Translations under genes and position numbers: made by a program
The notes under the pieces: model-generated
Told to the model about the DNA's origin: nothing
What the model saw: only the letters and a program-made list of their open reading frames with translations
Database searches by the model: none
Assembly: GCF_006345805.1 (NCBI RefSeq)
Contig: NC_042997.1
Coordinates: 129,890,001-129,954,000 of the forward strand
Direction of reading: 5' to 3'
Origin: Octopus sinensis
Taxonomy: Eukaryota
Length of the DNA stretch: 64,000 nt
Shown: positions 6,782 through 57,660 of the stretch, one piece after another
Layout: each line of letters opens with the position of its first letter
How positions within the stretch are numbered: position 1 is the stretch's first letter

Positions 6782-6871
6782 TATAATATATATATATATA
6801 TTATATATATATATATATATCTGTAACTATAATATGTGACAATTATTCGGTAGCATTTTTTTTGATCGCCC

Positions 6872-6932
6872 GATAACTGAAGAGATTGTGGTGTGGGTTT
6901 CCACCCCGACATTCGAAATTCGGAGTTTTATC
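6872..6932 (+). ncRNA. Type I hammerhead ribozyme motif inside a ~150-bp element with ~40-bp inverted arms (6819-6972)
   Basis: gataa-CTGAAGA-gattgt..acattc-GAAA-ttcggag-TT-ttatc, with stem I gataa/ttatc; arms ATCTGTAACTATAATATGTGACAATTATTCGGTAGC and its complement; next to (TA)n. Confidence 0.7.
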
Positions 6933-7489
6933 ATGGCTACTGAATAATTGTCACATATTATATTTACAGATAAATTCCTCTATTTACATAATATCGAGGT
7001 CTCTTTCATTCTTTTGTTGTCTTACCATTTCTATCAATATATATATATTTTCACACACATTTTTATAAACACATTTGCATGCAATTATAGGTTTGTGAGT
7101 CTGTATGGCATGTGTGTGTGTGTATGTATGTGTGTGTGTGTGTGTGTGGTGTGTGTGTGTGTCTATATACTGTCTGTCTGTACAGTGTAAGGAAGAAAGT
7201 TTACAAACTGGCAGAAAAGTTTGGCACCATTAGTAAAAATTGTTCGCTACGAAAAGGTCAGGTATTTTTGTCTGATGTCTGGTGAACTCACAATAATTCT
7301 TGTGTGGGCTCAGCAGCTGGTTTGCTTATTGGGGGTATGATTGTTGAGCTCATCTACAGTCCAAAGCTGCTATATAAAGTATTTGGTAGCTAGTCCACTG
7401 CCCATAAATGTTGTGACTCTCGCTGCCTCAGCAATTGCTAGAAACACTGTGATAACTGGTACATGTATATATATACAGACATACATACA

Positions 7490-9430
7490 CACGAATATAC
7501 CTCTTGTCATTCATGTTAAGGAAATCTGAAGGATATCTCACTGGTTCCCAAAAGAAACAAAAATACCAAAATTACACACTGTTTCTTTGTGGATGACTTG
7601 AAACTATGCAAAGAATATGCACGAGATGAAAAAGAGCCTTGACCTAGTTACAGTCTCAAAGGAGTTACGACTGGAGTTTGGCCAGGATAAATGTTGTTAT
7701 ATGGTTGTGAAAAGAGGAAATACTGTAAATCAGTCTAGTAACACTTCCCCTCTATCTGACGAGGAATGTTACAGGTATCTAGGGGTGGATGAAGACACAT
7801 CTTACAATGGCATCTGTAACAAAATGCATGTCACTAAGGAATATTACAGCTGAATAAAGAAAATTTAGACCTCAGAACTCTCTGCATTCAATAAAACAGT
7901 AGTTCACAATGTGTTTGCAGTGCCAGTACTCATACCAACATTTGAACTGTTTAATTGGACGCTTGATGAGATCCGAGCCATTGATGCGAAAACCTGAAAA
8001 ATACTAACAAGCACACATAATTTCCTCATAAACAGTGACATAGACTACCTATACCTAAAACAAAAACAAGATGGCAGAGGTTTAACATCGATCCAAAATG
8101 CCTTTTAATGTCATATCATATCCATTTGGCAACATCTTTTAACCAAGTGTTGAAGCGCGTTCTATGACCGAGTTGGCATACATAAAGCTGATAACATCAT
8201 AAAACTTAGAAGGCAGCTCCTTGAGCAACACTCTTTGTCTGATAACCTAGAATACATGCCCAAAGAAGTCATACGACTCTACTGCAACATATCATCAGAT
8301 ACAAGGATGAGCCTATATGGGCAGAAAACTATGCATGGATATGTTACTAGAAAGCTCCATGATGATAGTAACATCGATCATCAAAGGAGTTTATCACAAG
8401 GACCAATAACCGGATTACTACCTCCCACTTTGAAGGGTATGCATTTGCAATCCAGGAACACGAAATATCAACCAAGTACTTGATGCACAAAAGGGACAGA
8501 GATGCAGGAAAAACAGTAAAATGTGACAACTGATGCAGATTTTGTGGAGCTAACACTGAAGATATTATTCACATCATAAGCAGTTGTCCGAAAATGTCAT
8601 CATGGTATTATTTACCAATGAGACATGATGTTGTAGCCAGGACACTCTATAATGAAATCCATTGGAAGGATAACCCCGAGGACAAAGAAATAAGAACCCA
8701 CAGTATGGTAGAAGCCATAGCCACTGATAATAAAAAGGAGTACTGGTGGAATGTTCCACTGAAAACCTCAATAAAATGTAAACACAACAAACCTGATATA
8801 ATGATTTGGGATAGAGAGATTTGGGATTTGGGATAGAGAGTTGCCCAGCGGATTTTAACATAAAGCTGAAGATCAATGAAAAAGAGAATACCTGCGCTGT
8901 GCTATTGAGAAATCTGCAGTTGCTCTATCCAGATTACAAGCTCAGGTTTATACCTGTAACTATTGGGGCCATGAGATATGTAACACTCTGCCTAAATACC
9001 AATCTTAAGAAATTAAGTTTCTCAAAACCAGAAAGGAGAAAGTGAATTCGAAGACTACAGATCCAATCCATCATTGGAACTGTAAAAATCTGTAAAACAT
9101 TTCAGAAGTTTATCATTTAAATATATATATGAGCATGTCTAGATATGCAACTATATACATGAGAATACATAGATAAAGCAAAACATAAAAATCTGCACAC
9201 ATACATACATGCATACATACATACATACATACATACATACATGCATGCATGCATGCATACATACATACATACATACATACATACATACATACATACATAC
9301 ATACATACCTACATACAAAGATATCCAGTTGTCGATGTTGAAATTCCAATGAAGGAGCCTTGGATCTAGGTTAGAAACTATCTCTTTCTCTATTGGCAAG
9401 AAATCTTGAAATGAAACTGAACAATGGTAT
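7490..9430 (+). mobile_element. Dong/R4-like non-LTR retrotransposon with restriction-like endonuclease, 5'-truncated pseudogene
   Basis: RT motif ITHCFFVDDLKL (~7570-7610), YRYLGV, CCHC knuckle CRFCG..EDIIHIISSC, RHDVVA and KPDIMIWD..IESCPAD (RLE); many stops and frameshifts; stop at ~9118; 3' UTR contains (TACA)n. Confidence 0.85.
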
Positions 9431-49900: not shown

Positions 49901-49929
49901 ATATATATATATATATATTCTAGCAAAAA

Positions 49930-49967
49930 CTGTCTGATGAACGGCAACGAGAAACTCAGAGTAACAG
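49930..49967 (+). ncRNA. Minimal type I hammerhead ribozyme motif in a ~150-bp element (49919-50071) between (TA)n tracts
   Basis: aaaactgt-CTGATGA-acggcaacga-GAAA-ctcagag-TA-acagatttt; extended stem I, GUA triplet; stem II closing pair mutated. Confidence 0.75.
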
Positions 49968-50071
49968 ATTTTGTTGAATTTTCTGCTGCTTTAAATAAAG
50001 CATATTACTCTACCACTGGTATTTGAGTACTCTTTTTTCCACCTTGTTTCACATTTATGTGTTTACTCCGG

Positions 50072-50102
<31 letters not shown>

Positions 50103-50307
50103 GAAAGATGAATAATCTTGTAGTAGATTAATCAAAAGTTTAACCGATACCTTAGTAGCAAAAATCACAGCAGTAAACAGCACGGTTGGAGGTACAACCA
50201 TATGGTGTTGCAACCGTGCGTTGGTGCGGATAATTGAAATTAAAACATTATTGGTGAATTGAAGAAATGGAGCTGAACGCAGATTGAACAGAAATCGTTT
50301 TATTTCA

Positions 50308-50387
50308 TTCTACACGTGTTTCGAAAGGCACAAATTACCAAAATCCGATTGAATAATGGGACCATATTGTGTCTTTCTCTTCAGGAA
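50308..50387 (-). ncRNA. Type I hammerhead ribozyme motif (left arm)
   Basis: Exact mirror of 50628-50707. Confidence 0.85.
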
Positions 50388-50627
50388 GAAAATAGGAAAT
50401 CCGTTGGAAAAACAAAAACAGAACAGAGGCGGAGCAAAAACAAATCGAACTATGCTCCTAAGAGCCCATGGTGAAACTGTTTATCAGTGTATGTTGAGAA
50501 ACGGTGGCCACCGGTTCTCAACATACACTGATAAACAGTTTCGCCATGGGTTCTTAGGAGCATAGTTCGATTTGTTTTTGCTCCGCCTCTGTTCTGTTTT
50601 TGTTTTTCCAACGGATTTCCTATTTTC

Positions 50628-50707
50628 TTCCTGAAGAGAAAGACACAATATGGTCCCATTATTCAATCGGATTTTGGTAATTTGTGCCTTTCGAAACACG
50701 TGTAGAA
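50628..50707 (+). ncRNA. Type I hammerhead ribozyme motif (right arm), intact core
   Basis: ttc-CTGAAGA-GAAAGACACAA...TTGTGCCTTTC-GAAA-CACGTG-TA-gaa; long stem II with G-C closing pair, palindromic stem III, GUA triplet at 50702-50704. Confidence 0.85.
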
Positions 50708-50771
50708 TGAAATAAAACGATTTCTGTTCAATCTGCGTTCAGCTCCATTTCTTCAATTCACCAATAATGTT

Positions 50772-50802
<31 letters not shown>

Positions 50803-51110
50803 TATCATCATTGTTTTAACGCCCACTTTTCCATGCTTGCATGAGTCAGACAGAAATTGTTAACCCAGATTTTCTACAACCTGATGCCTTGTCTAACACC
50901 AATCCTCACCTGTTTCCAAGGAAAGTAATATTTCCCCATGGTTAGACATGTTTTTTCATGGAAGACTGGAAACAAGCAACATTATTTGTGTGAAAGTAAT
51001 GCTCATTTAAATGCTCATTAACAACCATCACATGATATCAAAACATACAAACAAAAACACTCACATGCACGCATGAATGCATGCACACATGTAGACATGC
51101 ACACACGCAT

Positions 51111-56519: not shown

Positions 56520-57660
56520 TTCTAAAAATGCGATAGGGTCAAGTGTAGGGAAATGTGAGTGGTCCCTTGATGGCATCATTTCTTACAAACATGTGAGTCC
56601 AAGTAGAAATATCTGGAGGTACTGTAGAAGAAATAAACTGGTCATGAGGAAGCATCGGTGGCAGGTCAGTGAAGGTTGACCTGAGTTGCGTGACGTAAGA
56701 TGTGGGATCCACATTTGGTAAGTCGATGGGTGCCAACATTTGTCCTGGAAGTGCTAAGGTGGTGCCATACAGGAGCTCAGAAGAGAAGTAGCCTAAATTC
56801 TCCTTGACAGCTGAGCGGCACCCCAGCAGAACAATGGGGAGAAACTCAGACCAACAATGAGGTTCGGGAGCTGTATGAATAGCGGCTTTGAGCTGGCAGT
56901 AGAATCATACCACCATTCTGCTTACGGCGGGATGGTAACTTGTGATGTGGATGTGCTGAACTCCAAGCAATCTCAAAAGTTCACAGAACAGACAAGCTTC
57001 AATGACAAGCGTCAGTGAAGGTTGACCTGAGTTGCGTAACGTAAGATGTGGGATCCACATTTGGTAAGTCGATGGGTGCCAACATTTGTCCTGGAAGTGC
57101 TAAGGTGGTGCCATACAGGAGCTCAGAAGAGAAGTAGCCTAAATTCTCCTTGACAGCTGAACAATGGGGAGAAACTCAGACCAACAATGAGGTTCAGGAG
57201 CTGTATGAATAGCGGCTTTAAGCTGGCAGTAGAATCATACCACCATTCTGCTTACGGCGGGATGGTAACTTGTGATGTGGATGTGCTGAACTCCAAGCAA
57301 TCTCAAAAGTTCACAGAACAGACAAGCTTCAAATTGGAATCCATGATCAGTAGTAATTCTAGAGGGTACTCCAAAGTGAGATATCCATCCGAAGATGAGT
57401 GCTCTGGTGACTGTTTCTGCGGAAATGTCTACAAGGAGGATGGTATCAGGCCTTCTGGAGAAGTGGTCGATGCAGGTTAATATGTAAGTAAATACATACC
57501 TGACCAGCCAAGGACCAACCAGGTTGATGTGTATGTGATGGAACCTGGTGTCTGGTGGCTAGAAGGGCCCAAGAGGTGCTCTCACGTGACGATGCACCTT
57601 GGAACACTGACATGGTAGACAGGTATGTGATCAAGCAGTAATAGACCAACCCATATTTGA
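56520..57660 (-). mobile_element. Gypsy LTR-retrotransposon integrase fragment with an internal tandem duplication
   Basis: Minus strand RFHHIHINLVGP..YILTCIDHFSR..WISHFGVPSRITTDHGFQF..TSYHP..QLKAAI..ELLYGTTLALPG (integrase core). Confidence 0.85.

What the first reader, a model, noticed from the sequence alone, without database searches (positions are those of the whole stretch)
50096..50772. Loopless 530-bp palindrome carrying two outward-facing intact hammerheads
Seen: 265-bp arms with about 3 mismatches, zero spacer, one perfect hammerhead per arm, an extra ~150-bp unique tail only on the left, and (TA)n on both sides. Inference: one minus-strand pseudo-LTR copy plus an inverted partial copy joined 5'-to-5', as expected from fold-back or template switching during PLE reverse transcription. 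The high arm identity implies a recent insertion or arm-to-arm gene conversion. A read-through transcript from either strand would form a 265-bp dsRNA hairpin that sequesters its own ribozyme and would be a strong ADAR/Dicer substrate (coleoid cephalopods are known for extensive A-to-I editing). The DNA could extrude a cruciform.
Basis: partly seen in the sequence, partly recalled or inferred. Interest (0 to 1): 0.78.

Follow-up and report, generated by a model that had tools for sequence, protein, structure and literature searches.

The report
Head-to-head Penelope-like retroelement stump
The 530-base mirror-image sequence with a hammerhead-ribozyme motif in each half is really there and belongs to a highly repeated family, but it is likely an ordinary cut-down copy of a Penelope-like jumping gene whose mirror half was likely made as it landed, a layout already described for these elements.

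Summary
Observation confirmed: arms 50243-50507/50508-50772, 3 mismatches, no spacer, an identical type I hammerhead motif per arm (palindromic helix III, dimer type), a 147-bp left-only tail, (TA)n both sides. The tail is not unique: tail and arm are high-copy in public runs of several organisms, and the family continues upstream of the centre, so this copy is 5'-truncated. Two more hammerhead-bearing inverted insertions of unrelated sequence, each with a one-sided tail in (TA)n, lie in the same window. Head-to-head inverted truncated copies, junction palindromes, one-sided tails, opposite-strand hammerhead pairs and (TA)n targeting are all published for Penelope-like elements. No RT/GIY-YIG ORF is linked, so membership is inferred. 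The locus itself was not bridged by any listed independent contig. Self-sequestering of the ribozyme is predicted; transcription, editing, small RNAs and cruciforms are untested. Modest extras: tails of 64-147 bp (30-40 in print), and an exact zero spacer that fits two-ended priming better than simple fold-back. Verdict: new member of a known kind, low interest.

The parts
50072..50096 (.). (TA)n tract, left target flank; hides any target-site duplication
50096..50242 (-). 147-nt one-sided 3' tail of the element, high-copy, part of the same repeat (depth does not fall to zero across 50229-50272)
50180..50219 (-). Stem-loop in the tail (9-bp outer stem); possible protein-binding or RT-start signal (inferred)
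   Evidence: tail folds at z -3.3, 0 of 200 shuffles as good; none of the variant rows falls in the outer stem
50243..50507 (-). Left arm: 5'-truncated pseudo-LTR-like copy, continuous with the tail
50303..50391 (-). Type I hammerhead motif, left copy (core starts 50384, predicted cut after 50311)
50507..50508 (.). Head-to-head junction, no spacer; other family copies continue upstream here with other letters
   Evidence: table 7 (loose ends before 50508/50507 in X3 5 contigs, X8 2, X2 6)
50508..50772 (+). Right arm: inverted, tail-less copy from the same template
50624..50712 (+). Type I hammerhead motif, right copy: stem I 50624-30/50705-12, core 50631-37, long helix II 50638-92, GAAA 50693-96, palindromic helix III 50696-50703, predicted cut after 50704
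50772..50802 (.). (TA)n tract, right target flank

Best explanation
The stretch is a zero-spacer 530-bp palindrome with a hammerhead motif in each arm and a tail on one side, and it is likely the 5'-truncated stump of a hammerhead-bearing Penelope-like retrotransposon whose mirror arm was likely built during insertion into a (TA)n tract. Steps: (1) shown: the sequence is one copy of a high-copy family that extends further 5' than this copy; (2) inferred from published PLE biochemistry: the element's GIY-YIG nuclease cuts both strands of the (TA)n target; (3) inferred: reverse transcription starts at two sites in the element RNA, the distal one giving the tailed left arm and the proximal one the tail-less right arm; (4) inferred, my preferred route (about 0.45 given the rest; fold-back self-priming about 0.35): both target ends prime cDNA on the same 5'-broken RNA, both cDNAs stop at its 5' end, and they are joined end to end, which gives a spacer of zero; (5) predicted: the copy is inert, since each strand carries one dimer-type hammerhead with no partner, and its antisense arm would be transcribed first and pair with it.
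For: Family: 20 of 24 listed runs (10 studies, organisms A-D) hold 0.42-0.74 of the sampled words, including runs of 6-61 million letters; 17,940, 6,967, 2,943 and 5,148 contigs laid on 49921-50560 (this count includes the neighbouring repeat), depth high over both tail and arm. Truncation: a shared upstream continuation at the centre in 3 of 4 runs (table 7). Other copies turn elsewhere: 2 of the 8 listed joints are head-to-head joins of this family at other points, 50175-50520 and 50421-50537, one contig each (table 5; sides 24-25 letters, weak). Hammerhead of the PLE type: palindromic helix III, G10.1-C11.1, predicted intermolecular helix III (dimer -44.9 against 2 x -16.3 kcal/mol), as in PMC4209133; 0 of the 5 listed substitutions inside the motif span hit the 47 core or basal-stem positions (P 0.025; 0 of 22 over the monomer, P 0.065). 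Recurrence: 15171-15796 and 6820-7036 show the same inverted, one-side-tailed, (TA)n-flanked layout with unrelated sequence. Literature: inverted 5'-truncated copy and one-sided tail (PMC8557442), palindromes at head-to-head junctions (PMC3846280), opposite-strand hammerhead pairs 100-700 bp apart (PMC4209133), both strands cut and extended with two RT start sites (PMC11167929), (TA)n targets for hammerhead-bearing clades.
Against: No PLE protein is linked: 0 of 248 frames hit a GIY-YIG family and the RT hits lie elsewhere in the window; only up to 30 upstream letters of the family were seen. A recurrent tail-less end at 50772 is not shown for this family: no such loose end among the 24 shown (516 hidden), although the neighbouring family shows one clearly. 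The tail is 147 nt against 30-40 in print. The locus is not bridged by any listed independent contig. All three mismatches lie in the inner 44 nt (P about 0.005, post hoc), which this account does not explain. Step 4 has no direct test here.
Confidence: 0.8

Rival explanations
1. Same element, other route (overlaps with the best explanation): one cDNA is primed at the left nick, runs through tail and arm, folds back on itself and is copied back to the tail-less point. A source copy with a short inherited hairpin at its 5' end could seed the turn.
For: Self-priming is the published reading (PMC3846280). The 15.5-kb case has a 9-nt loop, and in the 6.9-kb case the tailed arm is the longer one, as fold-back predicts. 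An inherited older hairpin would explain why all 3 mismatches lie in the inner 44 nt.
Against: A hairpin needs a loop of 3-4 unpaired letters; the family's upstream letters seen do not supply the letters after the turn, so 2-3 matching untemplated letters or a different source copy are needed. No listed contig shows the same junction at high depth.
Confidence: 0.3
2. An ordinary single copy was later turned into a palindrome by host repair (fold-back at a break, or a replication template switch).
For: Such inverted duplications exist in general (PMC11724301, listing and abstract start only); (TA)n tracts are fragile (recalled).
Against: Three hammerhead-bearing insertions in 64 kb share the layout, each mirror ends inside the element and in (TA)n, never in flanking DNA; the layout is a published PLE signature.
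Confidence: 0.07
3. Library fold-back chimera or assembly artefact.
For: No listed independent contig bridges the centre; no genome or raw reads were available.
Against: A fold-back read would mirror the tail and left flank too; here the mirror stops at 265 nt and runs into (TA)n and different sequence. The arms differ at 3 places, one a CpG transition where 97.6-99.5% of family depth has the other arm's letter. Two further cases in the window have different spacers.
Confidence: 0.05
4. A fold-back DNA transposon or MITE with TA target duplication.
For: Long inverted arms and TA on both sides.
Against: The two ends are not inverted repeats of each other (147-nt tail), the family runs on past the centre as non-palindromic sequence, and other copies turn elsewhere; a hammerhead has no role in cut-and-paste transposition (established knowledge).
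Confidence: 0.03
5. A host-retained hairpin-RNA locus that makes siRNAs or an editing substrate against the family.
For: Either strand is predicted to fold into a 265-bp duplex; the family is high-copy, so targets abound.
Against: No host exon is evident in the window; the layout is a by-product expected without selection; nothing shows that the locus is read through.
Confidence: 0.04

Closest known systems
Insertion architecture of canonical EN+ Penelope-like elements (Penelope/Poseidon, Neptune, Nematis, Hydra): PMC8557442 Fig. 2 text; PMC3846280
   Same: 5' truncation, inverted truncated copy joined head to head, palindrome at the junction, tail on one side, microsatellite target without a readable target-site duplication.
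   Different: No ORF and no direct pseudo-LTR in this copy; tail 147 nt (64-95 nt in the window's other families) against 30-40 nt; the palindrome runs the whole arm with no spacer.
Minimal/variant type I hammerheads of metazoan PLEs (PMC4209133)
   Same: Conserved core, short weak helix I, palindromic helix III that needs a dimer, G10.1-C11.1; pairs on opposite strands 100-700 bp apart were noted there and ascribed to truncated PLEs.
   Different: Helix II is much longer (55 nt with internal loops) and has no extra letter between positions 9 and 10.1; activity untested.
PAc (Poseidon, Anolis) in vitro mechanism (PMC11167929)
   Same: AT-rich target, both strands cut and extended, two RT start sites that define the tail, a stem-loop downstream of the hammerhead.
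   Different: The parts read do not address how inverted copies form; here the two ends lie 147 nt apart and either side of the stem-loop.
Animal non-LTR retrozymes (PMC7229834; bioRxiv 10.64898/2026.07.22.740005)
   Same: Short non-coding repeat with a type I hammerhead, likely moved by PLE enzymes.
   Different: Retrozymes are head-to-tail arrays whose ribozymes can release circles; this is head to head, with one sense ribozyme per strand.

Membership tests
Truncated head-to-head insertion of a hammerhead-bearing EN+ PLE | Type I hammerhead with palindromic helix III near the element's 3' end | tested here: met
   features from PMC4209133
Truncated head-to-head insertion of a hammerhead-bearing EN+ PLE | Dispersed repeat, 5'-truncated | tested here: met
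   (upstream continuation at the centre in 3 of 4 runs)
Truncated head-to-head insertion of a hammerhead-bearing EN+ PLE | Inverted truncated copy adjacent at the 5' end | tested here: met
   two other junctions of the family table 5 (weak)
Truncated head-to-head insertion of a hammerhead-bearing EN+ PLE | Tail on one end only | tested here: met
   met in form, length 147 nt against 30-40 in PMC8557442
Truncated head-to-head insertion of a hammerhead-bearing EN+ PLE | Tail-less end is a recurrent end of the family (second RT start) | tested here: inconclusive
   not among 24 loose ends shown, 516 hidden; shown only for the neighbouring family at 50005
Truncated head-to-head insertion of a hammerhead-bearing EN+ PLE | AT-rich/(TA)n target | tested here: met
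   PMC8557442
Truncated head-to-head insertion of a hammerhead-bearing EN+ PLE | Family's full-length member encodes telomerase-like RT plus GIY-YIG, or is moved by one | not testable with these tools
   no host genome held; only up to 30 upstream letters seen; 0 matches in prokaryotic, viral and metagenome collections
Truncated head-to-head insertion of a hammerhead-bearing EN+ PLE | Self-cleavage of the hammerhead (weak, dimer- or protein-assisted) | not testable with these tools
   needs an in vitro assay; conservation of core positions is suggestive only
Autonomous full-length PLE | RT + GIY-YIG ORF between direct pseudo-LTRs in this copy | tested here: not met
   no direct copy of the arm in the window
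Naiad (N-terminal EN+ PLE) | Lack of a canonical hammerhead | tested here: not met
   full motif present; PMC8557442
Non-LTR retrozyme | Head-to-tail tandem units each with a hammerhead | tested here: not met
   no tandem of this unit at the locus; definition
MITE / fold-back DNA transposon | Terminal inverted repeats that define both ends of a fixed unit | tested here: not met
   147-nt asymmetric end; family continues past the centre; definition recalled
Rfam hammerhead families | Match at gathering score | tested here: not met

The most novel reading that the evidence does not exclude
These insertions record two-ended priming by a dimeric Penelope enzyme: each cut strand of the (TA)n target primes at a different one of two RT start sites on one RNA, and the two cDNAs are joined end to end, which explains in one step the inverted copy, the one-sided tail and the zero spacer. 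With three such insertions in 64 kb, this genome would hold enough junctions to decide, from sequence alone, the open question of how PLE inverted copies and second strands are made; long tails (64-147 nt) make the two start sites easy to tell apart.
Probability: 0.3. Interest if true: 0.5.

Novelty: new member of a known kind. Interest (0 to 1): 0.2.

Why it matters
As a single locus it matters little: it is one more dead retroelement stump of a described layout. Its use is as a specimen. How Penelope-like elements make inverted copies and tails is still open (PMC8557442 says so in the passages read), and an exact zero-spacer junction with a long one-sided tail discriminates between fold-back and two-ended priming if counted over many copies. 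If such palindromes are as dense genome-wide as here, they would also be a large potential source of long double-stranded RNA, but nothing here shows that they are transcribed.

Tried and rejected
No host genome is held, so no genome-wide census. Rfam: 0 matches at gathering; at E up to 10 only hairpin-driven miRNA-type and weak matches below gathering, no hammerhead (20 rows; 22 rows for the 15.5-kb case); the miRNA matches were rejected as generic hairpins. Exact-pattern scans found 0 in metagenome contigs, viral contigs (34) and genome contigs (46). Pfam on 248 frames of 55 aa or more (low-complexity frames left out): no GIY-YIG, no PLE protein, no clear host exon. Expression: no RNA holder listed. 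I first read three variant rows at 50239-50246 as other copies ending in (TA)n at the tail-less point; written out they are a subfamily variant, and I withdrew that (notes). I tried to read an endonuclease C-terminus at the centre from the three frames: too short to decide. Contig depth was not turned into a copy number, as the tool warns. Look-ups of earlier findings by sequence, place and relatives gave nothing. The strict hammerhead descriptor missed three looser motifs (-15384, +49934, +6877); two of these came from looser scans and one by eye. Searches for a published two-ended model: 'Penelope, twin priming, inverted' 2 papers, neither on PLE mechanism by its listing; fold-back/template-switch terms 1 paper, on yeast repair; 'hammerhead ribozyme, octopus' 4 listed, only the Naiad paper relevant; hairpin/siRNA terms 6 reviews. 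The library lacks most subscription papers, and supplements were not read.

Full report
Observation. The palindrome is as described: arms 50243-50507 and 50508-50772, 265 nt, no spacer, with three mismatches 7, 36 and 44 nt from the centre. A 147-nt segment (50096-50242) has no mirror, and (TA)n tracts bound both ends. Each arm holds the same type I hammerhead motif facing outward: core at +50631 and -50384, a 55-nt helix II, GAAA, a palindromic helix III, and a GUA triplet with the predicted cut after 50704 or 50311. A strict descriptor, written after I had seen the motif, gave 3 hits in the window against a mean of 0.03 (maximum 1) in 100 shuffles. Rfam does not recognise it. The motif is complete in sequence but weak in fold: stem I has 7 pairs with a bulge, and the free fold pairs the core into a competing hairpin (-16.3 against -14.6 kcal/mol with stems I and II forced). 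Two copies are predicted to pair through helix III (-44.9 against 2 x -16.3), the dimer arrangement described for PLE hammerheads.

What it is. No host genome is held, so I used public runs. Of 24 runs listed, 20 (10 studies, organisms A-D) hold 0.42-0.74 of the sampled words of 49921-51050, among them runs of only 6-61 million letters; the best holder may be the source sample. Laying contigs of four runs on 49921-50560 gave 17,940, 6,967, 2,943 and 5,148 pieces (these counts include the neighbouring repeat at 49921-50071), most 90-99% alike, with summed depth of the order of 1e5-1e6 over most of both tail and arm. The depth is no copy number, but the family is plainly abundant, and the tail is part of it, not unique. 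In three of the four runs, contigs matching the start of the right arm carry the same kind of other letters before 50508 or 50507 (5, 2 and 6 contigs), so the family goes on upstream and this copy is cut off at the centre. Two of the eight listed joints are head-to-head joins of this family at other points (50175-50520, depth 18.5; 50421-50537, depth 24.5); each is one contig with a short side, so they are weak. Of 22 listed substitutions in the monomer, 5 fall in the hammerhead span and none in its 47 core or basal-stem positions (P 0.025 within the span, 0.065 over the monomer), suggestive of constraint in the family.

The window holds more of the same. At 15171-15796 an unrelated sequence forms 260-nt arms (98%), a 9-nt spacer, two outward hammerhead motifs, a 95-nt left tail and (TA)n on both sides. 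At 6820-7036 a short inverted arm precedes a hammerhead-like motif, the direct arm and a 64-nt right tail, again between (TA)n. Directly left of the finding, 49921-50071 is a third high-copy family with a looser motif at 49934; its contigs end in (TA)n behind 50005 (78, 34 and 41 contigs in three runs) as well as at the tailed end seen here, and show strand-change or back-going joints at several points. No frame in the window hits a GIY-YIG family (0 of 248); the RT and integrase hits lie far away and are unlinked.

How it likely works. Shown: a truncated member of an abundant hammerhead-bearing family sits head to head with a tail-less copy of itself in (TA)n. Inferred from PMC11167929 (parts 1-2 of 4 read): a PLE protein cuts AT-rich DNA on both strands, extends both, and starts reverse transcription at two sites that define the tail. 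I therefore read the tailed and tail-less ends as the two start sites. For the turn at the centre I prefer two-ended priming on one 5'-broken RNA with end-to-end joining (about 0.45): it gives identical template alleles, a one-sided tail and a zero spacer without a loop. End-to-end template jumping and L1 twin priming are recalled analogies, from no call. Fold-back self-priming (about 0.35), the reading in PMC3846280 (passages and Discussion read), needs a loop of 3-4 letters that the family's upstream letters do not supply, but it fits the 9-nt loop at 15.5 kb and the longer tailed arm at 6.9 kb. Neither route was tested directly.

Results against or outside this reading. A recurrent tail-less end was not seen for this family among the 24 loose ends shown (516 hidden); I first misread three variant rows as showing it and withdrew that. 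None of the 32 pieces shown of 33,318 bridges the centre, so the locus is not independently confirmed, though a fold-back chimera should have mirrored the tail and flank, and the arms differ: at 50472 97.6-99.5% of family depth carries the right arm's letter (a CpG transition in the left arm), while at 50464/50551 no variant row is listed, which points to a change in the right arm. All three mismatches lie in the inner 44 nt (P about 0.005, post hoc); an inherited older hairpin, conversion of the outer part, or consensus errors near the tip could each explain this. Arm divergence of 1.1% (0.2-3.3%) makes the copy young relative to the family.

Either strand is predicted to fold as a full duplex that buries its one sense hammerhead (-508.6 and -496.3 kcal/mol), and the antisense arm is transcribed first. 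That is a prediction about an RNA not shown to exist. Editing, small RNAs and cruciform extrusion were not tested, and no call names the host, so the coleoid argument is unverified.

Comparison with what is known. PMC8557442 (passages) lists 5' truncation, an adjacent inverted truncated copy, a 30-40-bp tail at one end and microsatellite targets as standard PLE anatomy, with hammerheads in all canonical EN+ clades and (TA)n targets in Hydra; Naiads lack them. PMC4209133 (parts 1-2 of 4) reports pairs of minimal hammerheads 100-700 bp apart on opposite strands, ascribed to truncated PLEs, with palindromic helix III and low activity. PMC3846280 reports abundant palindromes at head-to-head junctions. 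Retrozymes are head-to-tail arrays (PMC7229834 passages; bioRxiv 10.64898/2026.07.22.740005 part 1 of 5), which this is not. PMC13282606 (passages) lists recently active Penelope families in one octopus without describing these structures in the passages found. It works like a PLE insertion product; membership is inferred, because the family's RT and endonuclease could not be reached. What I did not find in print (searches; supplements unread and possibly relevant to tail lengths): tails of 64-147 nt and an explicit two-ended model. Earlier notes of this scan on other genomes describe the same layout; they are unchecked and not counted as support.

Verdict. Real, correctly described, sensibly interpreted, and ordinary for its class: new member of a known kind, interest 0.2. 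The boldest reading left open is that such junctions record two-ended priming and make the PLE inversion mechanism testable by counting (probability 0.3, interest 0.5).

Noticed in passing
window 15171-15796: Second head-to-head palindrome of an unrelated family: about 260-nt arms (98%), 9-nt spacer, hammerhead motifs at -15384 and +15680 (right copy has a perfect helix III palindrome, left copy one change in it), 95-nt left tail, long (TA)n on both sides.
   Followed up: partly
window 6820-7036: Third case: short inverted arm (about 37 nt beyond the (TA)n) that begins just 3' of the predicted cut site, a T-run at the junction, hammerhead-like motif at +6877, 64-nt right tail, (TA)n on both sides.
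   Followed up: partly
window 49921-50071: Very high-copy neighbour in the same microsatellite cluster, with a hammerhead-like motif at +49934 (helix II only 2 bp); public contigs show a second, tail-less end at 50005 followed by (TA)n and several inverted joints.
   Followed up: partly
window 50464-50551: All three arm mismatches lie within 44 nt of the centre; the outer 221 nt are identical. Unexplained.
   Followed up: partly
window 50180-50219 (-): Stable stem-loop in the tail (z -3.3) whose 9-bp outer stem shows no listed variant; an ATG in its loop region opens a 35-codon frame that runs to the tail end.
   Followed up: partly
window 24529-24770: Inverted repeat with about 100-nt arms and a short spacer, hammerhead-like fragments nearby but no full core, not in (TA)n.
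   Followed up: no
window 16182-16323 and 29192-29259: Smaller, more diverged inverted repeats (59-nt and 32-nt arms); the first abuts the long (TA)n right of the 15.5-kb palindrome.
   Followed up: no
window about 21000-23100: A stretch of about 1.27 kb appears twice in tandem (same microsatellites at 21259/22523, 21378/22642, 21698/22966; near-identical frames): local duplication or assembly duplicate.
   Followed up: no
window 34191-35123 (-), 26028-27545 (+), 57238-57558 (-), 8154-8924 (+): Decayed retroelement fragments: RVT_1 (E 4e-29), RVT_1/zf-RVT pieces, an rve integrase piece, and a frame at 8534 that looks by eye like the C-terminus of a restriction-like-endonuclease LINE (recalled, no Pfam hit).
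   Followed up: no
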